Positions 20,251 to 63,877 of a stretch of 64,000 nucleotides of DNA are shown one piece after another. The position numbers and the translations under genes were made by a program. The DNA is from a virus: the IMG/VR virus record IMGVR_UViG_3300044695_005756, positions 30,519 through 94,518 of that record; one strand, written 5' to 3'. Position 1 is the first letter of the stretch. Each line of letters starts with the position of its first letter. The notes under the pieces were generated by a model that had not been told where the DNA came from, made no database searches, and was given only the letters and a program-made list of their open reading frames with translations.

Positions 20251-21324
20251 TTATGGTATTGGATTGTTACTGTTCAATATGTAAACCAAATTAGCAAGTC
20301 GATCAATAGCTATTTGTATTGTTGCTGGTGGTGATGTATCCCAAATAATTGTACTTGCTGCTGTGTAATTGTACGATCCATTTGCAACATCAAACGCAGA
20401 GTTTGCGTGAGCATATCCGCTGTTCGCAAATCCTGAAGCCATATTGGCAATTTCAAATCCAGCATTTGCATGTATGAATGCAGCATTCGTGTCATGGTAT
20501 CCAGAGTTTGCTTGAATGAACCCTGAATTCGCATGTAAGAATGCCGCATTAGCATCGTGATATGCAGAGTTCGCTTGAATAAACGCCGAATTTGAATGAT
20601 CGAATCCACTATTAGAATGAATAAATCCAGAGTTTGCGTGAATAAATGCGGCGTTAGCGTATTGACCCGTCGAATTCTGTGACTGATAACCTGAATTGGC
20701 GTGATTAAAAGCCGCATTAGTTTGTATGAATCCAGAATTGGCGTGAATAAATGCGCCATTGGCCAAAGTAAATGCTGCGTTAGCGTATTGACCTGTCGCA
20801 TTCTGACTTACATAAGCGGCGTTTGCATGGTTAAACGCTGAGTTCGTGTGAACGAATGCCGCATTCGCTTGAATGAATCCTGAGTTTGCGTGAATAAACG
20901 CAGCATTTGCATAACTTGACGCTGAGTTTGATACATGACTAGGTGTATTTGCCGATATTGCTGTCCCGTTTCCAGCAAGAAACGCAGAATTGGCATGAAT
21001 AAACGCTGAGTTGGCATGAACGAATCCAGAATTTGCGTGATTGAATCCAGCGTTCACACTATGATAGGACGAATTCGCTTGAATGAATCCTGAATTAGCA
21101 TGATTGAATGCCGAATTTGCCTGTGTAAATCCTGAATTGGCGTGATTAAACGCCAAATTAGCCTGTCCCTGAGTTACGTCAAGTAATGTGTCTAGGGTAA
21201 AAGCAGACATTTTTCTGGAAACTGGTGTTCCAGATTGAATGTCTGTTACCATAAAAAATGTATTTTTTGTATTGGAAGATGGAGAGGTTAACTCTGTTAA
21301 TTCCGATAACTTAACTTTTGCCAT
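20251..21324 (-). CDS. Heptad-repeat fibre-like protein (357 aa)
   Basis: Almost entirely HANSGFIQANSAF-type repeats after an MAKVKLSELTEL N-terminus; late promoter upstream. Confidence 0.7.
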   Translation of the reverse strand: MAKVKLSELTELTSPSSNTKNTFFMVTDIQSGTPVSRKMSAFTLDTLLDVTQGQANLAFNHANSGFTQANSAFNHANSGFIQANSSYHSVNAGFNHANSGFVHANSAFIHANSAFLAGNGTAISANTPSHVSNSASSYANAAFIHANSGFIQANAAFVHTNSAFNHANAAYVSQNATGQYANAAFTLANGAFIHANSGFIQTNAAFNHANSGYQSQNSTGQYANAAFIHANSGFIHSNSGFDHSNSAFIQANSAYHDANAAFLHANSGFIQANSGYHDTNAAFIHANAGFEIANMASGFANSGYAHANSAFDVANGSYNYTAASTIIWDTSPPATIQIAIDRLANLVYILNSNNPIP

Positions 21325-42699: not shown

Positions 42700-43560
42700 T
42701 TAATCTTCTGCTAGAGACTTGAAATAATCCAATTCTTCATCTTCAATATCTGGTGAAGAACGTGGTGTGAAGTCTTCTGCTTTGCCTTTTGACACAGGCA
42801 CAGCACCATCAAGACCAAGCACTTTGTCAAGTTTTGCTTTCAACACTTCATATGGTTTGAAGTGTTTTGGATCAAGAAACTCTTTAAGAGAATATTCTTT
42901 TTTCCAGAGTGCTTCAAGTTTTGCGTCATCACCGCCAAACAATGCAGAAGGCGATTCAAACTCAGATTTATCATAATTACGATAACCTTCAACTTGACGA
43001 ATCTTGATTTTGAAGTTTGCACCTTCCCAAAAATCAAAAGGATTCATTGCCTTTTCATCTTCAAACTCTGGATCCATTGCTTCAGTCAACTTGTCAAAGA
43101 TTTTCTTACCAAACTTATACAGTTTGATTTGACCTTCGTTTTCTGGATTCTTTGGATCAGAAATGATCAACACATTTGAAATGTATGTGAGTCTACGTTT
43201 CTGCTTACGCGCAATTTCTTTGTTTGCTTCAATACCAGAATTCCACAACACAGAATTATATTCTGAAACTGGATCTTTTTGACCGAGTGTAGTCAAAGAG
43301 TTTTCAATGTACCAACCACCAGGACCTTGAAAGCCATGATTGAAGACACGTGCCCATGGAAGAGCATCATCACCATCTACTGCTGGTGCTGGTAGAAATC
43401 GAATGATTGCCATTCCGTTACCAGCTTTATCTACTTCGGGTTGCCAAAAACGATCATCGTCTTTAGAACCTTCGTTTGTGGGGGTATTGATTGATTCAAT
43501 CGCTTTAGTAAGTTTTTCAAACGAATTGCGATTGCTTTTAAGACTAGAAAAGTCCGTCAT
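42700..43560 (-). CDS. gp32: Single-stranded DNA-binding protein gp32
   Basis: DDRFWQP..DKAGNG.AIIRFLP, GGWYIENSLTT, NPFDFWEGANF, acidic YFKSLAED tail. Confidence 0.96.
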   Translation of the reverse strand: MTDFSSLKSNRNSFEKLTKAIESINTPTNEGSKDDDRFWQPEVDKAGNGMAIIRFLPAPAVDGDDALPWARVFNHGFQGPGGWYIENSLTTLGQKDPVSEYNSVLWNSGIEANKEIARKQKRRLTYISNVLIISDPKNPENEGQIKLYKFGKKIFDKLTEAMDPEFEDEKAMNPFDFWEGANFKIKIRQVEGYRNYDKSEFESPSALFGGDDAKLEALWKKEYSLKEFLDPKHFKPYEVLKAKLDKVLGLDGAVPVSKGKAEDFTPRSSPDIEDEELDYFKSLAED

Positions 43561-43584
43561 GTTTTACCTCGTATAGTTAGTGTG

Positions 43585-44127
43585 TTAAAAAATATGTACA
43601 TCTTGTCCACTTGATTCATTATATACTTGTATATATGTATCGTCAAGAACAGACTGCACGACTTTTATCGTTTTTGCCGTTTCTTTGTGAAGAATACCTA
43701 CACCACCTGCCATATTAAAATCGTCAATAACATCATTAGTGTCATCAATGAGTATAATATCAGACTTGGCATAGTTTGCTTTCAAATGACGACCAGGTAC
43801 GATATTAGCTTTAAAGTCGATGTAATGTCTTTTCAGCCAAACCTTTTTTTGCCGCTTCACTTCTTCATGATGTAGTCTACCGCCAGAAGATGAAAGAATT
43901 TCTACAGGTATATCAAGTGAAATGATATACTTTAACAACTCTTTACCACCTGGATACCAGTCAAGTGTTTCAAAATTTCTTCCCTCAACAAATGTATTCC
44001 AATTATCATCATGTTTTTCACCACGTTCTCGACTACTTGCTGCGTTTTGTTTAAAAACTTCTTTGTATCTTTTGTTGAAGTCTGACAAAACTCCATCCAT
44101 GTCTAGGTAGATTTTAGTTATTCGCAT
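43585..44127 (-). CDS. HAD-family 5'(3')-deoxyribonucleotidase-like protein
   Basis: IYLDMDGVLSDF, ILSS and ILIDD motifs. Confidence 0.8.
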   Translation of the reverse strand: MRITKIYLDMDGVLSDFNKRYKEVFKQNAASSRERGEKHDDNWNTFVEGRNFETLDWYPGGKELLKYIISLDIPVEILSSSGGRLHHEEVKRQKKVWLKRHYIDFKANIVPGRHLKANYAKSDIILIDDTNDVIDDFNMAGGVGILHKETAKTIKVVQSVLDDTYIQVYNESSGQDVHIF

Positions 44128-44713
44128 CGTATTCTTTCTTGAGTATTAGTTTATATTTCGTCGGTTCGAATTGTATGAACGGTGTATATTTTTTTATTTT
44201 TCTACTGACATTCGGATAGTGAATTGTGTCATTAATTTTCTTGTCCCATGAAGAAATAAAATTGAGTATTTTATTAAGTATGCATACAGTTTCAAGCGAA
44301 ATTTCATCATGTAGCAATTTCTGAAGTAAATCAGGATATTCGCCATCATGTATCATAAATGCTGCATTAGCGTCTTTATGACTTATTAATGATGCAATTT
44401 CGTTGGTAAAAGTATACGTCAATGATTGAATCACTTTTTGTCGTTTACGATACTCAATATCAGCATCGTTTGTGAGTAGGTGTCCTATCCAAACATCTGA
44501 ATCATGAACCAAATTAGCAACAATATAATCGCGCCCTTGATCATCATTTGTGAATCTCCTGCTTAGTTTGTAGAAGTGCCATTTATCTTTTCGATTCTCA
44601 AACGCATCAATACTGGTACTTACTTTACCATGATACTTAAAGTAATCGTAAGAATCTGAATTAAAGTGGAGCTTGAGAGAAGTATATAAACAAAATGCCT
44701 CATACCCGGTCAT
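44114..44713 (-). CDS. gp59: Helicase loader gp59
   Basis: LYTSLKLHF...YDYFKY.GK, RKDK..F.KL, ISLET motifs; between gp33 and gp32. Confidence 0.9.
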   Translation of the reverse strand: MTGYEAFCLYTSLKLHFNSDSYDYFKYHGKVSTSIDAFENRKDKWHFYKLSRRFTNDDQGRDYIVANLVHDSDVWIGHLLTNDADIEYRKRQKVIQSLTYTFTNEIASLISHKDANAAFMIHDGEYPDLLQKLLHDEISLETVCILNKILNFISSWDKKINDTIHYPNVSRKIKKYTPFIQFEPTKYKLILKKEYDANN

Positions 44714-44934
44714 ATCGGTAAACGATTGCCTTTCACTTTTAACATATTTAATCTTTCTGCTTGCTCATGAATCTTCGATTTAAGATTTGGTGTAATGAGT
44801 GAAGCAGCAACTTCTAATTCAAGTCCAGTTTCTTTGCAATGTTCAGTAATAGCTTCAAGATATGTGTAATCAGTATTAGCCACCAACTGCTCTATTTGCA
44901 GAGAAAACTGGAGCATTTCGTCTTTAGTAGGCAT
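44710..44934 (-). CDS. gp33: Late transcription coactivator gp33
   Basis: IEQLV...YLEAI..HC...LI..LKSKI..AERLNMLK...LPI; synteny. Confidence 0.88.
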   Translation of the reverse strand: MPTKDEMLQFSLQIEQLVANTDYTYLEAITEHCKETGLELEVAASLITPNLKSKIHEQAERLNMLKVKGNRLPI

Positions 44935-46621: not shown

Positions 46622-47344
46622 TCAATCCCAAAGTCCTCTGTAGTATTTACCAAATAAACGAAAACCGTTATCCATACGATCATAAACTTTTTTCATGCCA
46701 TCGTAATCACATTCGTATGTGTGATTTGGTCCGTGTTCAAATGTGTAGAGTATTGGTTTACCATCTGCATCCCATTCACACGGCACAGAATGTGTATCAA
46801 TATTACCCGAACGATATGCTTCTTCCCACGAATCGTCAATGAGGTGTTCAAATGCAAAAATCATTTCATTCAACACCCATTCCCAACGACGATGTGTGAT
46901 GTCCCAAGATTTTTTTTGAAATTCTTCATCATCTTCAAACTTCAATTCAAGTTGGGAAGAACAATCGTCATAACCACTAATACGTAGTTCTTCTGGCACA
47001 TCTTCTGTATCAACTAGTGGTGAACCGTGTTTAGTATCACGCAACTGTTTCAACATCGGCAAAACGATCATACCTAATGTGTGATCCATTGACCATGTGT
47101 CATACTTGTCAATGCGTATTTTGATTTTGCGCTTCTTGTACTCTTCAATCTTTTGGCAAACTTTAGTCAACCAAGAGTCGTTACCGTTTCGATCTTCTGC
47201 AAGCCATGTACCAAAGTCGTGAACCCAATCAGGCTTTCGTGAAAAGCCACACTCATCGGGTACTTTCTTTGCCCAGAAGCAAAGTAAGTCTGCTAATTGA
47301 TAGGGACCGAACCAGTTTGTATAAGGACCAATGTTTACTTTCAT
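46622..47344 (-). CDS. Conserved hypothetical phage protein
   Basis: True start MKVNIGPY at 47344; DTWSMDHTL..I.LPMLKQL and GFRLFGKYYRGLWD motifs. Confidence 0.75.
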   Translation of the reverse strand: MKVNIGPYTNWFGPYQLADLLCFWAKKVPDECGFSRKPDWVHDFGTWLAEDRNGNDSWLTKVCQKIEEYKKRKIKIRIDKYDTWSMDHTLGMIVLPMLKQLRDTKHGSPLVDTEDVPEELRISGYDDCSSQLELKFEDDEEFQKKSWDITHRRWEWVLNEMIFAFEHLIDDSWEEAYRSGNIDTHSVPCEWDADGKPILYTFEHGPNHTYECDYDGMKKVYDRMDNGFRLFGKYYRGLWD

Positions 47345-47349
47345 AATGT

Positions 47350-47660
47350 ATCTCTGAATTTGGTGTAGGGTGTTTTGGTAATAAGGTACACCCCACTTAA
47401 ACCCCATGAGAGTTACGCTGCTAGGCGTTCTTCTCCGTAAAATGCATCGTTTGCATTTGTAGATTTGCTTGATTTACAGTCATCGCCTACTGTGTTGCCT
47501 TCTCCGCTATCTCACCCTGTCGAAGCCATGTCATCCCCATCAAAAGTATTCTCACGGTTTATCTTTCCGTTCCCAACTCCATGGACAAGAATACTTTTGG
47601 TGGAGATGCCGGGGATCGAACCCGGGTCCAGAATGCCTTCACTTTGAAGGAGTTACAACA
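47350..47660 (-). ncRNA. ssrA: Circularly permuted two-piece tmRNA
   Basis: Acceptor piece ends GGAC-CCGGG-TTCGATC-CCCGG-CATCTCC-A-CCA (CCA at 47600-47598). An intervening hairpin follows, then the coding piece starting GGGGATG...TTCGAC at 47538 (G3.U70 Ala identity pair) and the tag ORF GCA..TAA 47454-47413 = ANDAFYGEERLAA*. Outer ends are approximate. Confidence 0.9.
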
Positions 47661-47809
47661 ATTCCGTCTTCTTGCATTATTGCATCAAATTCATTTTTTC
47701 TTGCTGCATACCAACCCCATGCACCAAAGAATGTTGTGCCTGGATTAGAACCACATTCTTTCAAGTATGCTTCAAATCTTTCGTAATAATCTTGTTCACT
47801 AATTTGCAT
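47639..47809 (-). CDS. Small hypothetical protein (56 aa, MQISEQDYYERFEAYLK...)
   Basis: Starts 2 nt after the upstream stop; below the ORF-track cutoff; its 3' end abuts the tmRNA acceptor piece. Confidence 0.4.
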   Translation of the reverse strand: MQISEQDYYERFEAYLKECGSNPGTTFFGAWGWYAARKNEFDAIMQEDGIVVTPSK

Positions 47810-47811
47810 AA

Positions 47812-48342
47812 TTACTCTGTCGTAAATCTTGCAGAACCTTTGCTCGTTCTACCGGGCTTCAACGGCTTGTCAGACTTCGGTTTTGTTTCTGTTTGAAATG
47901 GTACATGTGACTTATTGAAAGCCATTTTACCTACATTCTCCGTCTTGCCATGTCCTGGGAATCCCGTTTTGTTTGTTCCGTGCAGGGTCGCCGTTTTTCC
48001 ATCATGATGTAAGATTGAGTCTTGATTATAATGTTCTCCATGTTTTTTAACATCATGGAGGAGTTGTTTTCCGTGTTCTTCACCTTTGCCTTTGGCATGT
48101 ACAAGTATTGATTTTTCTTTTCCACCTTCCCAATGTCCTTCTACTTCTTTATGTGTATAACCTTGTGAGGTCAGTTTCTTTTTTAGTTCTTCGTGATGCT
48201 TTTTATTTTGTTCTGGCGACACTTCATCATGTGGTCGCTGTGAAGAAAGAATTGCATAATGACGACCTTCTTCCGCATGTTTAGCCAATCTTGCTAATGG
48301 ATTGCCTTCATCTAGTTGTGTATGTTGTTTGAATGATAGCAT
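47812..48342 (-). CDS. His-rich protein with a T4 internal-protein-like N-terminal capsid-targeting sequence
   Basis: MLSFKQHTQLDE N-terminus, 18 His in 176 aa, GGAGG RBS, late promoter at 48365-48371. Confidence 0.55.
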   Translation of the reverse strand: MLSFKQHTQLDEGNPLARLAKHAEEGRHYAILSSQRPHDEVSPEQNKKHHEELKKKLTSQGYTHKEVEGHWEGGKEKSILVHAKGKGEEHGKQLLHDVKKHGEHYNQDSILHHDGKTATLHGTNKTGFPGHGKTENVGKMAFNKSHVPFQTETKPKSDKPLKPGRTSKGSARFTTE

Positions 48343-48357
48343 AGTGCCTCCGACGTG

Positions 48358-49023
48358 TCAAGCATATTTATCAATCATCTCAATTAGAGGCTGTCTATAA
48401 TCATGAATCTGACGCTCAAACACTTGCGCTGGACCTTCTTCAGTCGCAATCAGCACCACAATATCGTCAATCCACATACCAGTTCGTTCAGAAAACATCA
48501 GAGCATATGCTGTACATTGCATAAAGTAATTCTGAATATTCTCTTCCAATTTCTGCTTCGTCGATGTTTTAAAATCGATGACGGCTAACTTACCATTCCA
48601 TTCTGCAATCAAGTCCACTCGACCAGCAATTCGTAACTTGTCTGAATATAATGCCTGCTCTTGTGAATAAACTTTACCTACATTCTCATCTATGATTGGC
48701 TTAATCTTGAAAAACAGTTCTTTCAGATCAGGCATCATCATTTGCATCTTTAGTTCTGGTATTTCATTGTTAATGTAATCCTCACAAATTTTATGTACTT
48801 TGGTACCACGATTCGATGCTTTGCGTGAGATTTCATTCGCACGTTCCTCACCCACAGCTTGACGCCATTCGTAAATAGCTTGTTTGCCGTAGTTTGAAAG
48901 AACAGTAGTGATAGACTTGTATCTATTACCTTCTGGTGTAGTATACAGTCTACCACTATCAGTAGTTTCTGCTTTTAAGTCAAATTGTAATTGCGGTAAG
49001 CTTACATGTTCAAATATTCGCAT
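48358..49023 (-). CDS. PD-(D/E)XK exonuclease (Cas4/RecB-like) conserved in T4-like phages
   Basis: SITTVLS, RGTKVH, AGRVDLI, IDFKTS, YFMQ.TAY motifs. Confidence 0.88.
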   Translation of the reverse strand: MRIFEHVSLPQLQFDLKAETTDSGRLYTTPEGNRYKSITTVLSNYGKQAIYEWRQAVGEERANEISRKASNRGTKVHKICEDYINNEIPELKMQMMMPDLKELFFKIKPIIDENVGKVYSQEQALYSDKLRIAGRVDLIAEWNGKLAVIDFKTSTKQKLEENIQNYFMQCTAYALMFSERTGMWIDDIVVLIATEEGPAQVFERQIHDYRQPLIEMIDKYA

Positions 49024-52619: not shown

Positions 52620-53153
52620 CTAAAAGATAATATCTGCAATACCATACTCGACCAGTTCTTCTGCTGACAACCAAACATCAGTTGGTCGCAGAAACTTAGC
52701 CTTTACATCTTTAACTGAAAGTTTAGAACAATCAGAAAGAATCTTTGCCATTTTGTGATGATACCTATCACACTCTTTGGCATAAGCCCGCATATCATGA
52801 TATTTGCCACCCATTTCATCATTAAATTGGTGAATCATAATTGTCGTGTTTTTACCGACTGCACGATAACCTTTTTCACCAGCAGCAAATATTACGAATG
52901 CAGCACTCATTAAATTACCATATGCAAGTGTGCGAACAGGCACACCCACACCTAACATTAAATCTGCAAGTCCTATTGCATCACCTAAGTTTCCACCTTC
53001 TGAGTTAATGTGCAATGTTAAGGGCTTTTCAATCTTGTTAAATTTTGCGTATAATATCCAACGTGACGCAGCTTCAATAATTGTCGGATCAATATTACCT
53101 GACAAAAAATGTGCATACGATTCAAAAGATATTTCATTGTCTTTGTCGTTCAT
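52620..53153 (-). CDS. clpP: ClpP-family serine protease
   Basis: L.INSEGG, catalytic Ser in MSAA, IMIHQ (His), DVWLSAEELVEYGIAD (Asp). Confidence 0.88.
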   Translation of the reverse strand: MNDKDNEISFESYAHFLSGNIDPTIIEAASRWILYAKFNKIEKPLTLHINSEGGNLGDAIGLADLMLGVGVPVRTLAYGNLMSAAFVIFAAGEKGYRAVGKNTTIMIHQFNDEMGGKYHDMRAYAKECDRYHHKMAKILSDCSKLSVKDVKAKFLRPTDVWLSAEELVEYGIADIIF

Positions 53154-60570: not shown

Positions 60571-60645
60571 TTAACGATTTGCAATATACATTGTGATTTC
60601 AAAACCGAAACGCATATCTTGTGCTGATGGTGTAGTCCACTTCAT
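60571..60645 (-). CDS. pqqA: Pyrroloquinoline quinone precursor peptide PqqA (24 aa)
   Basis: MKWTTPSAQDMRFGFEITMYIANR*: W-x-x-P, D-x-R-x-G-F-E-x-x-x-Y signature; AAGGAG RBS; followed by a terminator; not in the ORF track. Confidence 0.93.
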   Translation of the reverse strand: MKWTTPSAQDMRFGFEITMYIANR

Positions 60646-60659
60646 TTTTTTCTCCTTAG

Positions 60660-61094
60660 TTAGTTATTTTCTGCTAAATGTTTGTCCAACGCTTTTTGAT
60701 AACGATTAGCATGTGACCGTTCTGCTTTCGCAAGTGTCTCAAACCAATCTGCTACTTCATCAAAACCTTCATCGCGGGCAATTTTTGCCATACCAGGATA
60801 CATGTCAGAATATTCGTGTGTTTCACCATGAATTGCTGCTTCTAACATTTCTCTAGCAGACTTTGCTGGCATATTTGTGCCTGGCTCACCCGCACCGCCT
60901 TCAATGAGATATTCCATGTGACCGTGTGCATGTCCTGTTTCGCCTTCAGCAGTAGAACGGAATAATGCAGCAAGATCGTTTTCACCTGCGATATCACATT
61001 GATTTGCGAAATACAGATAACGACGGTTTGCCATAGATTCTCCAGCAAAAGCTTCTTTCAAGCATTCTGCGGTTTTTGTACCCTTCAAACTCAT
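60660..61094 (-). CDS. rbr: Rubrerythrin (short, ferritin-like di-iron domain only)
   Basis: [58 protein letters not shown] motifs. Confidence 0.92.
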
Positions 61095-61342: not shown

Positions 61343-61416
61343 TGGAGCGGGATATCAGAATCGAACTGATAACAGGAGCTTGGAAGGCTCACGTTTTACC
61401 ATTAAACTAATCCCGC
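61343..61416 (-). tRNA. tRNA-Gly(TCC)
   Basis: GCGGGAT acceptor, loop CTTCCAA, TTCGATT T-loop, encoded CCA. Confidence 0.92.
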
Positions 61417-61423
61417 GTTTGAT

Positions 61424-61720
61424 TTACTTGATAAGGATTTCTTTGCGTTCTACATCTTCACCTGATGGATGATGATATGCAATATATCCATCTTTGTCTT
61501 TGTATGTTACGCCAGCCCAAAAATAATCTTTGTCTTTGAAGTATGCAATTCGTTCATCGGTGTATTCATTGATATCAACTTTCATGCATCCGAGCCATTC
61601 TTGCCAATTGTCATCAGCATACTCAGAAATTTTTACTGCTTCTTCTTCAGAATCGGCTTCAATGACATAAACATTTCGAAAAACGGACAATTGTTCAACA
61701 ATATACTTAGGCATTTTCAC
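61424..61720 (-). CDS. Hypothetical protein
   Basis: YVIEADSEEEA motif; operon context. Confidence 0.6.
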   Translation of the reverse strand: MKMPKYIVEQLSVFRNVYVIEADSEEEAVKISEYADDNWQEWLGCMKVDINEYTDERIAYFKDKDYFWAGVTYKDKDGYIAYHHPSGEDVERKEILIK

Positions 61721-62000
61721 TCCCCAATGAAAAATGAACTTCTTTAATTGAATCCCAACGAAAAGAACGCCAACCTTCTTTTTCTAAATCATAAACTGCA
61801 AGAGTTTCATCATTTTTCGGTCTATCTGAGCCTACAGTTTCAGGAAGAAATTTTTCCATCAATGTACATTTCATTGTACGTTCAGTTCCGTCTTTTTTTG
61901 TGAAAATCACTTCAACTGGAGACTGTTCTAAAAGACCAATCAGCCATTCACGACCAATTCTTGCATCTTCTGTATTACCTGAAAAAACATTTGGATTCAT
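61707..62000 (-). CDS. WYL-like/SH3-fold small protein conserved in T4-like phages
   Basis: V.FTKKDGTERTMKCTL...VYDLEKEGWRSFR motif. Confidence 0.75.
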   Translation of the reverse strand: MNPNVFSGNTEDARIGREWLIGLLEQSPVEVIFTKKDGTERTMKCTLMEKFLPETVGSDRPKNDETLAVYDLEKEGWRSFRWDSIKEVHFSLGSENA

Positions 62001-62003
62001 AAT

Positions 62004-62438
62004 TTACTCCGCTAAAGATTTTAACGCTTCATTGACTTTTTTCTTGAATGTACCATTTGTAATGAAATCAAGATACTCAGTCCACCAATTATCTGACTGC
62101 TCAGTCTTTTTGACGATACAACCTGATATTCCTGAACCCACTAGATTTTTTATATACACTAAAGGATCAACTAAAATGGCTTCAAACGCATCTTCAAACT
62201 CAGGCATACCTTCTTCGTTCTCTTTAAAAAATGCCATATGATATTTGTAGCCCATTTCAGACTTTTCAATCGGTTCCGCTTGTGTCCATTCTTCTTTAAA
62301 GTTAAAAAACGCTAATTTATAGTTTTCCTCAAAGTCATCATAGTCAGGAACAAAGTAAAAACCATCAAATTTACTCATTTCATCGCCGTTTACACTTTCG
62401 GCTTCAGCTTTTTGCAACTTTTCATCAGAAGAAGGCAT
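62004..62438 (-). CDS. Hypothetical acidic protein
   Basis: ORF in operon; start may be internal (MSKFDG). Confidence 0.55.
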   Translation of the reverse strand: MPSSDEKLQKAEAESVNGDEMSKFDGFYFVPDYDDFEENYKLAFFNFKEEWTQAEPIEKSEMGYKYHMAFFKENEEGMPEFEDAFEAILVDPLVYIKNLVGSGISGCIVKKTEQSDNWWTEYLDFITNGTFKKKVNEALKSLAE

Positions 62439-62586
62439 AGTTTTTCCGTAAATTTTGTTTTTCGGCTGCTCGACTGTAAAAATTTATCGCAGAATGTTCA
62501 ATTTTCATCCGATATTTCGGTGTGAATAAGTCTTTTGCGACAAAATTTCGCGGCTTTTGCAATTTTTTCGTGTTTTTCGTACTCAT
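62425..62586 (-). CDS. Small basic hypothetical protein (KPRNFVAKDL motif)
   Basis: Start MSTKNTKK right after a promoter. Confidence 0.55.
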   Translation of the reverse strand: MSTKNTKKLQKPRNFVAKDLFTPKYRMKIEHSAINFYSRAAEKQNLRKNYAFF

Positions 62587-62596
62587 GATAGACTCT

Positions 62597-62625
62597 ATTA
62601 TGTCAGAAAACTCAAATTTTGTCAA
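62597..62625 (-). promoter_or_regulatory. Sigma70-type promoter TTGACA-N17-CATAAT
   Basis: Near-consensus hexamers. Confidence 0.65.
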
Positions 62626-62631
62626 TTATAA

Positions 62632-62723
62632 TGGCGGTAAGTGTGGGATTTGAACCCACGGAACGTATTTCTACGCTCGACGGTTTAGCAAACCGCTGAT
62701 TTAAGCCTCTCATCCAACTTACC
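62632..62723 (-). tRNA. tRNA-Ser(GCT)
   Basis: Loop TTGCTAA, long variable arm, G73, CCA. Confidence 0.92.
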
Positions 62724-63123
62724 GTGTCTGATCCGCAAGTTTTTTGTAACCTTTTCCAGTAGGATGTACACCATCCGCACTAATATCACTCTCTGGTCGA
62801 GAAATTACTACATCTCCAAACTCTGCTGCGACTTGTTTTACTGCTTCTACTTGTTTTGGCTTCAATTTTTGACTCGGTAAAAGCCAAAAAACTTTTTGTG
62901 CTTGTGCATTTGTTCGTAATGACCGAATATTTCCTTCTGTGTTGATACCTAAATCATTTGCACCAAGACTGATAATCAAAGTTTTTGTCGGTTGTAGTTT
63001 ATTCATATAGATTTTATTCCAATTATGTGAATTGATACCACTCTTCACATATGCAACACACTCCCTACGAACTTGACTCACACCAACACCGATGCTATCA
63101 CCAACAATTAAACATTCTAACAT
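62719..63123 (-). CDS. SGNH/GDSL hydrolase family protein
   Basis: GDS, GAND and DGVHP blocks. Confidence 0.85.
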   Translation of the reverse strand: MLECLIVGDSIGVGVSQVRRECVAYVKSGINSHNWNKIYMNKLQPTKTLIISLGANDLGINTEGNIRSLRTNAQAQKVFWLLPSQKLKPKQVEAVKQVAAEFGDVVISRPESDISADGVHPTGKGYKKLADQTR

Positions 63124-63138
63124 AATTTTTCCTTTAAA

Positions 63139-63226
63139 TGGCGGAAGCGGTGAGATTCGAACTCACGGATCATTTCTGATCGGCAGTTTTCAAGACTGCT
63201 GATTTAAACCACTCATCCACACTTCC
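63139..63226 (-). tRNA. tRNA-Ser(TGA)
   Basis: Loop CTTGAAA, long variable arm, CCA. Confidence 0.92.
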
Positions 63227-63231
63227 CTAAC

Positions 63232-63309
63232 TGGAGCAACGGGTCGGATTTGAACCGACGGTTTTAGAGTTTTGCAGACTCTTGCATTGGGCCACTCTGC
63301 CACCGTTGC
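63232..63309 (-). tRNA. tRNA-Cys(GCA)
   Basis: Loop CTGCAAA, U73, CCA. Confidence 0.9.
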
Positions 63310-63314
63310 ATAAT

Positions 63315-63389
63315 TGGTGCATCGTGATGGATTCGAACCACCGACAACCTGCTTGTAAGGCAGGGATTCTACCGCTGAACTAACGATGC
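63315..63389 (-). tRNA. tRNA-Val(TAC)
   Basis: Loop CTTACAA, A73, CCA. Confidence 0.9.
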
Positions 63390-63413
63390 ACAGCCTCACA
63401 CGCGATACTTATA

Positions 63414-63489
63414 TGGTGCGCTAGGAGAGATTCGAACTCTCAAAATTTGGTTTCTAAGACCAACACGTATACCGTTCCGTCACCAGCGC
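63414..63489 (-). tRNA. tRNA-Leu(TAG), short variable loop
   Basis: TTGGT-CTTAGAA-ACCAA anticodon arm, A73, CCA. Confidence 0.85.
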
Positions 63490-63490
63490 A

Positions 63491-63565
63491 TGGTAGTAGT
63501 GGTAAGATTCGAACTTACACCTGACACCGTATGAAGGTGGCGCACTACCGTTATGCTACACTACC
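63491..63565 (-). tRNA. tRNA-Met or Ile2 (CAT)
   Basis: Loop TTCATAC; lacks the initiator GGG/CCC stem; CCA. Confidence 0.8.
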
Positions 63566-63567
63566 AT

Positions 63568-63641
63568 TGGTTGTCCCGACAAGAATTGAACTTGTAATGG
63601 TCGATTATCAATCGACAGTTATACCATTTAACTACAGGACA
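63568..63641 (-). tRNA. tRNA-Ile(GAT)
   Basis: GTCGA-TTGATAA-TCGAC arm, CCA. Confidence 0.9.
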
Positions 63642-63645
63642 AAAT

Positions 63646-63720
63646 TGGGGTGTCTAACGGGTACCGACCCCGTACCTACTCTTTCACAGAGAGTAATGCT
63701 ACCACTACACCATAGACACC
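63646..63720 (-). tRNA. tRNA-His(GTG) with encoded G-1
   Basis: Loop CTGTGAA, G-1:C73 pair, atypical T-loop GTCGGTA. Confidence 0.85.
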
Positions 63721-63722
63721 AT

Positions 63723-63796
63723 TGGCCTCGGTGGAGAGAATCGAACTCCCACATACGGTTTTGGAGACCGTGGTTCTGCCATTAAACTACACCGAG
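63723..63796 (-). tRNA. tRNA-Trp(CCA)
   Basis: Loop CTCCAAA, G73, CCA. Confidence 0.9.
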
Positions 63797-63801
63797 AAAC
63801 T

Positions 63802-63877
63802 TGGAGCGGATAGCCAGGCTCGAACTGGCGACATTTTGCTTGGCAAGCAAACATTCTACCAACTGAATTATATCCGC
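63802..63877 (-). tRNA. tRNA-Gly(GCC)
   Basis: GCGGATA acceptor, loop TTGCCAA, U73, CCA. Confidence 0.92.

What the first reader, a model, noticed from the sequence alone, without database searches (positions are those of the whole stretch)
47350..47660. Phage-encoded circularly permuted (two-piece) tmRNA
Seen on the minus strand, in order: T-arm plus CATCTCC-A-CCA, a ~59-nt intervening segment closed by a 12-bp stem (CAAAAGTATTCT/AGAATACTTTTG) that extends the acceptor helix, then GGGGATG..TTCGAC, AGGGTG pairing with CATTCT, and the tag ANDAFYGEERLAA*. The G3.U70 pair is present. Established: permuted tmRNAs occur in Alphaproteobacteria, some marine cyanobacteria and a betaproteobacterial lineage, and I recall one being reported in a marine T4-like methylophage, so this is rare but not unprecedented. 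Inference: the phage supplies its own ribosome-rescue RNA, perhaps countering host tRNA/mRNA-cleaving defences.
Basis: partly seen in the sequence, partly recalled or inferred. Interest (0 to 1): 0.8.

Follow-up and report, generated by a model that had tools for sequence, protein, structure and literature searches.

The report
Two-piece tmRNA gene in water phage
An uncultured T4-like water phage really does carry a complete, back-to-front ("two-piece") gene for tmRNA, the RNA that frees stalled ribosomes. Such genes are already published for related phages, so this is a well-supported new example of a known kind.

Summary
Observation confirmed. ARAGORN calls a permuted tmRNA at 47322-47690(-) with tag ANDAFYGEERLAA. 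Rfam gives 150 bits for tmRNA_permuted and 141 bits for the betaproteobacterial model.

The host record is a 94.5-kb IMG/VR T4-like myophage fragment. The gene lies between a PD-(D/E)XK exonuclease and gp33/gp59/gp32. At least 108 other viral contigs carry related genes. All 32 gp59-anchored relatives that cover this slot have one.

Across 89 distinct viral copies the acceptor stem and T-arm are 100% paired, with compensatory changes. G3:U70 and A73 never vary. In the window's tag group, 9 of 10 variable sites in the tag frame are third-codon positions, so the peptide is under selection.

The RNA is therefore very probably a working tmRNA that relies on the host's SmpB, since none is found in the record.

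The kind is known. Melnitz and HTVC008M carry alpha-type two-piece tmRNAs in the same genomic slot (PMC9004378). What is new is the beta type, the size of this phage lineage and its fast-changing tags. The counter-defence idea remains untested.

This scan has noted permuted phage tmRNAs many times on other DNA.

The parts
47355..47702 (-). Whole permuted (two-piece) tmRNA gene, betaproteobacterial type
   Evidence: RF01850 141 bits, full model 1-331. ARAGORN tmRNA* at 47322-47690.
47598..47660 (-). Acceptor piece. It holds the 5' strands of helix P2 (UGUUG from 47660; CAUUCUG 47635-47629), the T-arm (47625-47609), the acceptor 3' strand CAUCUCC, discriminator A and an encoded CCA.
   Evidence: Covariation across 89 viral copies: T-arm 445/445 cells paired, P2d 622/623 paired, discriminator A in 89/89.
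47539..47597 (-). 59-nt intervening segment, presumably removed on maturation. The 12-bp closing stem (47599-47588 / 47552-47541) extends the acceptor helix.
   Evidence: Length and fold. The stem is 91% paired across the family, with several pair types at all 12 positions; shifted-partner controls give about 40%.
47355..47538 (-). Coding piece. It holds the acceptor 5' strand GGGGAUG (G1 = 47538), UUCGAC, the P2 3' strands, pseudoknot-1 stem CAGU/ACUG (47492-47489 / 47480-47477), the tag frame, and a 3' hairpin (47393-47368) with the conserved loop CCUUAUUACCAAA.
   Evidence: Rfam alignment. Acceptor stem 623/623 cells paired, G3:U70 in 89/89, and positions 4-6 covary.
47413..47454 (-). Tag reading frame: resume codon GCA, 13 codons encoding ANDAFYGEERLAA, stop TAA. 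It is preceded by ACAAAU, which aligns with the bacterial consensus UAAAU.
   Evidence: In 9 distinct relatives with this tag type, variable sites by codon position are 1/0/9 (P = 0.0004). Nine codons vary only synonymously and one changes the residue.
47639..47809 (-). Upstream 56-codon ORF. Its last 8 codons, stop included, overlap the 5' end of the acceptor piece.
   Evidence: Conserved at 58-77% identity in 15 related loci. No Pfam or PHROG match.
46622..47344 (-). Downstream gene (phrog_11543, function unknown). Its ATG lies 11 nt after the end of the tmRNA model, with no terminator between them.
48333..48361 (-). Sigma-70-like promoter (TTGACA, 17-nt spacer, TG-TATCAT; 11 of 12 matches) ahead of the S-AdoMet lyase gene. 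It is the likely start of the transcript that carries the tmRNA.
   Evidence: Consensus scan only. Three such sites were found in the region, as many as in shuffled sequence (mean 3.3), so the assignment is inferred.
48358..49023 (-). PD-(D/E)XK exonuclease, the upstream marker of the conserved tmRNA slot.
   Evidence: phrog_298 and PF12705. It is 42-44% identical to the exonuclease next to the tmRNA in Melnitz and HTVC008M.
42700..44934 (-). gp33-like late-transcription coactivator (44710-44934), gp59 (44114-44713), a 5'-nucleotidase and gp32 (42700-43560). These are the downstream markers of the slot.
52620..53153 (-). Phage ClpP-family protease, about 5 kb upstream on the same strand. It may consume LAA-tagged proteins. 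This is context, not a proven part of the feature.
   Evidence: PF00574, 105 bits. No ClpX in the record.

Best explanation
This is a working two-piece tmRNA gene of the betaproteobacterial type, carried as a stable core gene in the replication/early region of an uncultured T4-like aquatic myophage.

Inferred mechanism:
1. It is transcribed inside a multi-gene transcript, probably from the sigma-70-like promoter at 48361.
2. Host RNase P cuts 5' of G1 (47538). Host 3'-end enzymes trim to the encoded CCA (47598). The stem-closed 59-nt spacer is discarded.
3. The two pieces stay paired through the acceptor stem and helix P2.
4. Host AlaRS charges the RNA (G3:U70, A73). Host SmpB and EF-Tu deliver it to ribosomes stalled on broken mRNAs.
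5. Translation resumes at GCA and appends ANDAFYGEERLAA. The LAA end sends the product to ClpXP-type proteolysis.

Likely benefit: the phage keeps ribosomes free and recycles amino acids once the host can no longer replenish its own tmRNA.

What is shown: sequence and structure membership, conservation, and peptide-level selection on the tag. What is inferred: processing, charging, tagging and the benefit.
For: - Detection: full-length matches to RF04321 (150 bits) and RF01850 (141 bits), and an ARAGORN permuted call.
- Structure: across 89 distinct viral homologues the acceptor stem and T-arm are 100% paired with compensatory changes. G3:U70 and A73 are invariant. P2d is 622/623 paired. The spacer stem is 91% paired, against about 40% for shifted controls.
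- Tag frame: 9 of 10 variable sites fall on third codon positions (P = 0.0004). The resume codon is GCA in 83 of 89 copies, and 77 of 89 tags end in LAA.
- Conservation: 32 of 32 relatives found through gp59 (69-91% identity) that cover the slot carry the gene. Synteny persists down to about 51% gp32 identity.
- Not an attachment-site remnant: the gene is complete and the record has no integrase.
- Precedent: two-piece tmRNAs sit at the same slot in Melnitz and HTVC008M (PMC9004378).
Against: - There are no expression, processing, charging or tagging data.
- No SmpB is found in the 94.5-kb record. The record is only about 51% complete, so dependence on host SmpB is assumed.
- There is no dedicated promoter or terminator. 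The upstream ORF overlaps the 5' arm, so maturation needs cuts that were not demonstrated.
- The host is unknown, so compatibility with its SmpB and AlaRS cannot be checked.
- The second stem of pseudoknot 1 was not examined.
Confidence: 0.8

Rival explanations
1. Same molecule and mechanism, but selected mainly as a counter-defence. It would rescue ribosomes stalled after abortive-infection nucleases cut tRNAs or mRNAs, acting together with the phage's 11 tRNA genes.
For: The phage carries a tRNA cluster at 61343-63877. An anti-restriction-type S-AdoMet lyase lies in the same apparent operon. Ribosome rescue would logically help after mRNA cleavage (inference).
Against: Nothing in the sequence points to a particular defence system. 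The gene is universal in the clade regardless of neighbouring genes, which fits a general housekeeping role at least as well.
Confidence: 0.2
2. A tag-reprogramming device. The phage tmRNA exists mainly to attach a phage-specific degron, different from the host's 10-residue ANDExxALAA tag. This would route tagged proteins differently, for example to the phage ClpP or with altered adaptor (SspB) handling.
For: - The tag is 3 residues longer than every bacterial beta-type tag recovered here, all of which are 10-mers.
- Close relatives swap between 13-mers and various 10-mers, and sister clades have 24-31-residue tags.
- A ClpP gene lies 5 kb away.
- From memory only (Hersch et al. 2004, not held): extra spacing between the SspB and ClpX sites improves delivery.
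Against: Many members of the same phage lineage keep host-like 10-mers such as ANDERYALAA and ANDEQFALAA, so a special tag is not required. The AND start and LAA end are retained. No ClpX or adaptor is encoded.
Confidence: 0.15
3. A decoy or inhibitor of host trans-translation, or a non-functional passenger or attachment-site remnant captured from a host.
For: The tmRNA database paper notes that a tag-less tmRNA-like RNA of mycobacteriophage DS6A inhibits endogenous tmRNA (PMC11915505). Phages often carry 3' fragments of tmRNA genes from integration sites (PMC9004378).
Against: The gene is complete, not a fragment. There is no integrase and the phage is T4-like, hence presumably lytic. The tag frame is under purifying selection at the peptide level. 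Structure is maintained by compensatory changes across 89 variants. The viral sequences cluster apart from all sampled bacterial ones, so this is not a recent capture.
Confidence: 0.04

Closest known systems
Betaproteobacterial two-piece tmRNA (Rfam RF01850; Sharkady & Williams 2004, cited in PMC9004378)
   Same: Same permuted gene order, T-arm, G3:U70 acceptor stem, helix P2, first pseudoknot stem, UAAAU-GCA resume context, AND...LAA tag, and the conserved 3' hairpin loop CCUUnUUACCAAA. Bacterial examples recovered here include Advenella, Pelistega, Brackiella, Oligella and Rhodocyclaceae.
   Different: - It scores 141 bits, against 160-300 for the bacterial genes.
- It lies in a phage and lacks its own promoter and terminator.
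- The tag is 13 residues, against 10 in bacteria.
- The best bacterial match among 701 sampled genomes is only 82% identical over 108 nt.
- Viral copies cluster apart from bacterial ones in the tree.
ssrA of Methylophilales phage Melnitz (MZ577097) and Pelagibacter phage HTVC008M (KC465899), family Kyanoviridae (PMC9004378)
   Same: A two-piece tmRNA in a T4-like aquatic myophage, at the same slot: PD-(D/E)XK exonuclease, small ORFs, tmRNA, gp33, gp59, gp32. The flanking proteins are 35-57% identical to those of the window.
   Different: Those are the alphaproteobacterial type (RF01849 106.7 bits; GGCAGUA T-loop; acceptor GGGGGCG). The Melnitz gene ends in a glutamine riboswitch. The window gene is beta type with no riboswitch. 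No blastn similarity to any of 50,697 phage records beyond a 44-nt stretch.
Caulobacter two-piece tmRNA (Keiler, Shapiro & Williams 2000, cited in PMC9004378)
   Same: It is the experimental precedent: a permuted gene is transcribed as one precursor, loses its intervening loop, and functions as two paired RNAs.
   Different: It belongs to the alpha lineage and is chromosomal. No experiment exists for the phage gene.
Cyanomyophage two-piece tmRNAs (e.g. S-SSM7, GU071098)
   Same: A permuted tmRNA in a phage of the same family, Kyanoviridae (Table S1 of PMC9004378).
   Different: It lies about 20 kb from gp32 in a different neighbourhood, and is annotated there as a hypothetical protein.

Membership tests
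tmRNA, permuted/two-piece form (RF04321; RF01850 subtype) | Score above the curated Rfam thresholds over the full model | tested here: met
   RF04321 150 bits (cut-off 47) and RF01850 141 bits (cut-off 84), both covering the full model.
tmRNA, permuted/two-piece form (RF04321; RF01850 subtype) | tRNA-Ala-like domain: 7-bp acceptor stem with G3:U70, discriminator A73, CCA, and a T-arm | tested here: met
   All are present in the window. G3:U70 and A73 are invariant in 89/89 viral homologues. Acceptor stem and T-arm are 100% paired with compensatory changes.
tmRNA, permuted/two-piece form (RF04321; RF01850 subtype) | Circular permutation: the acceptor 3' strand with CCA lies upstream of the acceptor 5' strand, separated by an intervening segment | tested here: met
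   CCA ends at 47598, G1 is at 47538, and the spacer is 59 nt. ARAGORN gives the tmRNA* call.
tmRNA, permuted/two-piece form (RF04321; RF01850 subtype) | Tag reading frame with an alanine resume codon, a hydrophobic ...LAA end and a stop codon, constrained as a coding sequence | tested here: met
   GCA through TAA encodes ANDAFYGEERLAA. Variable sites by codon position are 1/0/9, P = 0.0004.
tmRNA, permuted/two-piece form (RF04321; RF01850 subtype) | Pseudoknot 1 upstream of the resume codon | tested here: inconclusive
   The first stem (CAGU/ACUG) is present and 83% paired with covariation. The second stem was not modelled by Rfam and was not examined.
tmRNA, permuted/two-piece form (RF04321; RF01850 subtype) | Maturation into two RNAs, alanylation, SmpB binding and tagging activity | not testable with these tools
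   These need Northern blots or RACE, an in-vitro AlaRS assay and a non-stop reporter.
tmRNA, permuted/two-piece form (RF04321; RF01850 subtype) | An SmpB partner is available | tested here: inconclusive
   No PF01668 match in the 94.5-kb record, which is about 51% complete. Host SmpB is assumed.
Kyanoviridae-type phage ssrA as described for Melnitz and HTVC008M | Located between the PD-(D/E)XK exonuclease and gp33/gp59/gp32 | tested here: met
Kyanoviridae-type phage ssrA as described for Melnitz and HTVC008M | Alphaproteobacterial-type tmRNA sequence and structure | tested here: not met
   The window's best subtype is RF01850, beta. Melnitz's best subtype is RF01849, alpha.
Kyanoviridae-type phage ssrA as described for Melnitz and HTVC008M | Glutamine riboswitch at the 3' end (Melnitz and Mosig only) | tested here: not met
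   RF01739 is found in Melnitz. It is absent from window 46900-48000 at E <= 1 and from the whole window at gathering scores.

The most novel reading that the evidence does not exclude
The gap between the exonuclease and gp33/gp59 in aquatic T4-like (Kyanoviridae-related) myophages may be a conserved tmRNA cassette site. At this site whole tmRNA types, alpha in Melnitz and HTVC008M and beta here, have been exchanged.

Within the large beta-type phage lineage, the tag, spacer and acceptor-stem modules are also shuffled. Tags have been remodelled into 13-mers with an inserted spacer and into 24-31-residue forms. This would give phage-specific degrons rather than copies of the host tag, possibly working with the phage's own ClpP.
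Probability: 0.35. Interest if true: 0.6.

Novelty: new member of a known kind. Interest (0 to 1): 0.4.

Why it matters
Phage-encoded tmRNAs show that large lytic phages maintain more of the translation apparatus than tRNA supply alone. None has been tested functionally in a T4-like phage.

This example adds three things:
- The betaproteobacterial tmRNA type also lives in such phages, and it does so as a universal, positionally fixed gene of a large uncultured lineage.
- The same genomic slot holds a different tmRNA type in the published marine relatives. This bears on the published argument that tmRNA type records past host switches.
- The tag peptide is clearly under selection yet changes quickly between close relatives. 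That offers natural variants for testing what a phage gains from tagging.

It does not open a new category.

Tried and rejected
- **Naming the closest bacterial tmRNA donor or host.** The best BLAST match among 701 sampled genomes (order and family searches) was an unnamed 2.0-Mb genome, G070, at 82% over 108 nt. An exact-pattern search for its sequence found nothing. A motif shared by its relatives pointed to Advenella, Pelistega, Brackiella and Oligella. The viral sequences cluster apart from these, so no host could be inferred.
- **My own covariance model of the phage family.** Not attempted: the alignment exceeds the column and calibration limits. Covariation was counted by script on a MAFFT alignment instead.
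- **Attachment-site remnant or temperate origin.** Rejected: the gene is complete and there is no integrase.
- **Glutamine riboswitch as in Melnitz.** Absent.
- **Phage-encoded SmpB or ClpX.** Not found in the partial record.
- **A dedicated promoter just upstream, as in bacterial genes.** Only a poor match (TTGATG, 17 nt, GGAATT) by eye. The scan found none closer than 47951, and no terminator.
- **Protein-coding reading of the region.** The plus-strand ORFs at 47465-47896 have no support and overlap the RNA.
- **Hersch et al. 2004 on tag spacing.** The paper could not be read, so that point is marked as recollection.

Full report
**1.

On the minus strand the elements lie in this order:
- a T-arm (CCGGG-UUCGAUC-CCCGG, 47625-47609);
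- the acceptor 3' strand CAUCUCC, discriminator A and an encoded CCA ending at 47598;
- a spacer of exactly 59 nt (47597-47539);
- the acceptor 5' strand GGGGAUG starting at 47538, followed by UUCGAC;
- CAGGGUG (47519-47513), which pairs with CAUUCUG (47635-47629);
- a reading frame from GCA (47454) to TAA (47413) encoding ANDAFYGEERLAA.

ARAGORN calls a permuted tmRNA with this tag. Rfam gives 150 bits for tmRNA_permuted (cut-off 47) and 141 bits for the betaproteobacterial model (cut-off 84), both over the full model. The minimum-free-energy fold of 47632-47525 gives the T-arm, the acceptor stem and the spacer stem as one stacked helix (z = -3.3).

**2. The context is a T4-like phage.**

The window is part of a 94.5-kb IMG/VR viral record judged about 51% complete. 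It encodes:
- T4-type baseplate proteins;
- gp32, gp59, a gp33-like coactivator, RNase H and a PD-(D/E)XK exonuclease;
- eleven tRNAs.

Its gp32 is 55-58% identical to those of cyanomyophages and Pelagibacter phage HTVC008M.

The tmRNA gene runs in the same direction as its neighbours. The order on the minus strand is: exonuclease (48358-49023), S-AdoMet lyase (47812-48342), a conserved 56-codon ORF, the tmRNA, a phrog_11543 gene, a cell-wall hydrolase, gp33-like, gp59, a nucleotidase and gp32.

The last 8 codons of the 56-codon ORF, stop included, overlap the RNA's 5' arm. The ATG of the phrog_11543 gene follows the RNA model by 11 nt. There is no terminator. The nearest good sigma-70-like promoter lies at 48361-48333. 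The RNA must therefore be cut out of a longer transcript. This is inferred, not shown.

**3. Relatives.**

In the genome collection of about 186,000 species it hit only 26 contigs. ARAGORN finds a permuted tmRNA in 108 of the viral loci.

Where flanks are available, the same neighbourhood recurs down to about 51% gp32 identity.

A sample chosen independently of the RNA gave the same answer. It comprised the 80 best gp59 relatives (69-91% identity) out of 348 found. The slot was fully covered in 32 loci. ARAGORN found the gene in 31 of them, and Rfam found it in the remaining one. The gene is therefore a fixed feature of this phage clade.

No isolated phage in a 50,697-record collection resembles it by blastn, apart from one 44-nt stretch in an Acinetobacter phage record.

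**4. Evidence for function.**

Across 89 distinct viral sequences:

| Element | Result |
|---|---|
| Acceptor stem | 623/623 cells paired; positions 4-6 switch among G:C, C:G, A:U and U:A |
| G1:C72 and G3:U70 | 89/89 each |
| G2:C71 | 88/89 |
| Discriminator A73 | 89/89 |
| T-arm | 445/445 paired, with compensatory changes |
| P2d helix | 622/623 paired |
| Spacer stem | 91% paired, several pair types at all 12 positions; shifted controls about 40% |

The tag frame behaves as a coding sequence. In the nine other-than-L008 variants encoding ANDAFYGE(E/D)RLAA, ten sites vary. Nine of these are third-codon positions (P = 0.0004). Nine codons change only synonymously and one changes E to D.

Family-wide, the resume codon is GCA in 83 of 89 copies and the tag ends in LAA in 77 of 89.

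This pattern is what a translated, selected tag and a chargeable tRNA-Ala mimic would produce. It argues against a decoy, a relic or an attachment-site fragment. No integrase is present in the record.

**5. Mechanism.**

The best-supported reading is an ordinary trans-translation RNA run on host factors:
1. RNase P and 3'-end trimming release the two pieces.
2. The pieces stay joined by the acceptor stem and P2.
3. AlaRS, SmpB and EF-Tu come from the host. No SmpB or ClpX is found in the partial record.
4. The LAA-ended tag directs products to ClpXP.

Whether it works with the tag is unknown.

The likely benefit is keeping ribosomes available and recycling amino acids during infection. The counter-defence variant of this idea is possible but has no specific support.

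**6. Comparison with what is known.**

Two-piece tmRNAs in phages are published. The Melnitz paper counted 53 distinct permuted tmRNAs among 18,146 phage genomes, mostly marine or aquatic. It found them in 17 of 47 Melnitz-like contigs (PMC9004378; Table S1).

I found that Melnitz and HTVC008M hold their tmRNA in the same slot as here: exonuclease, small ORFs, tmRNA, gp33, gp59, gp32. The flanking proteins are 35-57% identical to those of the window.

Their RNA, however, is the alphaproteobacterial type, and Melnitz adds a glutamine riboswitch. The window gene is the beta type without a riboswitch. The cyanophage S-SSM7 keeps its tmRNA elsewhere.

The slot is therefore conserved while the tmRNA type differs. 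This suggests cassette replacement or repeated insertion at one site. It also weakens any simple use of tmRNA type as a record of host history.

The nearest bacterial beta-type genes are 10-mer-tagged and form clades separate from the viral ones in a FastTree tree. They come from unnamed Burkholderiales, Advenella, Pelistega, Brackiella, Oligella and Rhodocyclaceae. The tree rests on a short RNA, so resolution is limited. The host remains unidentified.

**7. Tag evolution.**

The window's 13-residue tag keeps the bacterial AND start and LAA end, with three extra residues in the middle.

Very close relatives (gp32 84-93% identical) instead carry ANDERYALAA, ANDNYYAMAA, ANDELYALAA or ANDDYYALAA. 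The acceptor stems, spacers and tags recombine in mosaic fashion. For example, the window and L177 share an identical spacer but differ in acceptor stem, T-arm and tag.

Sister clades have predicted tags of 24-31 residues. Third-position bias supports translation of the 31-mers (P = 0.007) but is not significant for the 28- and 29-mers.

**8. Verdict.**

This is a real, almost certainly functional, phage-encoded two-piece tmRNA. The kind is already known, and this scan has flagged permuted phage tmRNAs many times on other DNA.

What is new is the beta type, the size and fixity of this phage lineage, the slot shared with alpha-type relatives, and the fast-evolving tags. Interest is moderate.

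Noticed in passing
window 52620-53153 (-): A ClpP-family protease gene (PF00574, 105 bits) lies in the early/replication region of a T4-like phage. Its nearest isolated-phage homologues are only about 35% identical (Synechococcus phage BUCT-ZZ01, Sinorhizobium phage Phosso, Ralstonia phage RsoM2USA). No ClpX is found in the record.
   Followed up: partly
window 60571-60645 (-) and 60660-61094 (-): A 24-codon ORF, MKWTTPSAQDMRFGFEITMYIANR, looks like a PqqA precursor peptide (E-x3-Y motif). It sits next to a rubrerythrin-like 144-residue ORF. A PQQ link could hint at a methylotroph or other PQQ-using host.
   Followed up: partly
window 47812-48342 (-): An S-adenosylmethionine lyase family gene (PF23780), of anti-restriction type, lies immediately upstream in the same apparent operon as the tmRNA. 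It is present in 19 related loci.
   Followed up: no
L008:5627-5995 (-): The closest relative first recovered has GUA (Val) instead of GCA at the aligned resume codon. ARAGORN therefore reports a shortened tag, DAFYGEERLAA. The rest of the frame differs from the window only synonymously.
   Followed up: partly
L119-L231, e.g. L119:10641-11077, L134:2484-2915, L180: Sister clades of viral beta-type tmRNAs have predicted tags of 24-31 residues, for example ANADTFDFSAMSFTGNTVRGAANESRFALAA. Some end in LAV or FAV instead of LAA. Several look like a canonical 10-mer preceded by an in-frame extension, so the true resume site is uncertain.
   Followed up: partly
window 47582-47559 (-), inside the spacer: The spacer core GUCCAUGGAGUUGGGAACGGAAAGAUAAACCGU is identical in the window, L008, L177 and L213, although the closing stem and acceptor stem differ by compensatory changes. 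It contains a 7-codon mini-ORF (AUG GAG UUG GGA ACG GAA AGA UAA). Other close relatives (L174, L147, L135) have unrelated spacers of 25-159 nt, so the spacer behaves as an exchangeable module.
   Followed up: no
L003:7552-7628, L005, L006, L007, L009: In another viral group (tag ANDEQFALAA) a tRNA-Met gene directly abuts the 5' end of the permuted tmRNA, and a terminator follows it. This layout differs from the window's, where the gene is embedded between ORFs.
   Followed up: no
L099, L104-L107 (Cupriavidus spp.): Several Cupriavidus genomes carry a permuted tmRNA with tag ANDEKFALAA. In C. consociatus LEh25 the motif hits three contigs, one of which has an ARAGORN-called gene. These may be extra copies on mobile elements.
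   Followed up: no
GU071098 (S-SSM7) 21009-21227: The permuted tmRNA of cyanophage S-SSM7 (RF04321, 78.5 bits) coincides with a CDS annotated as hypothetical protein SSSM7_025. This is probably a mis-annotation.
   Followed up: no
L337:4049-4447: ARAGORN missed a permuted tmRNA that Rfam detects at 135-142 bits. ARAGORN-only surveys therefore slightly undercount these genes.
   Followed up: yes
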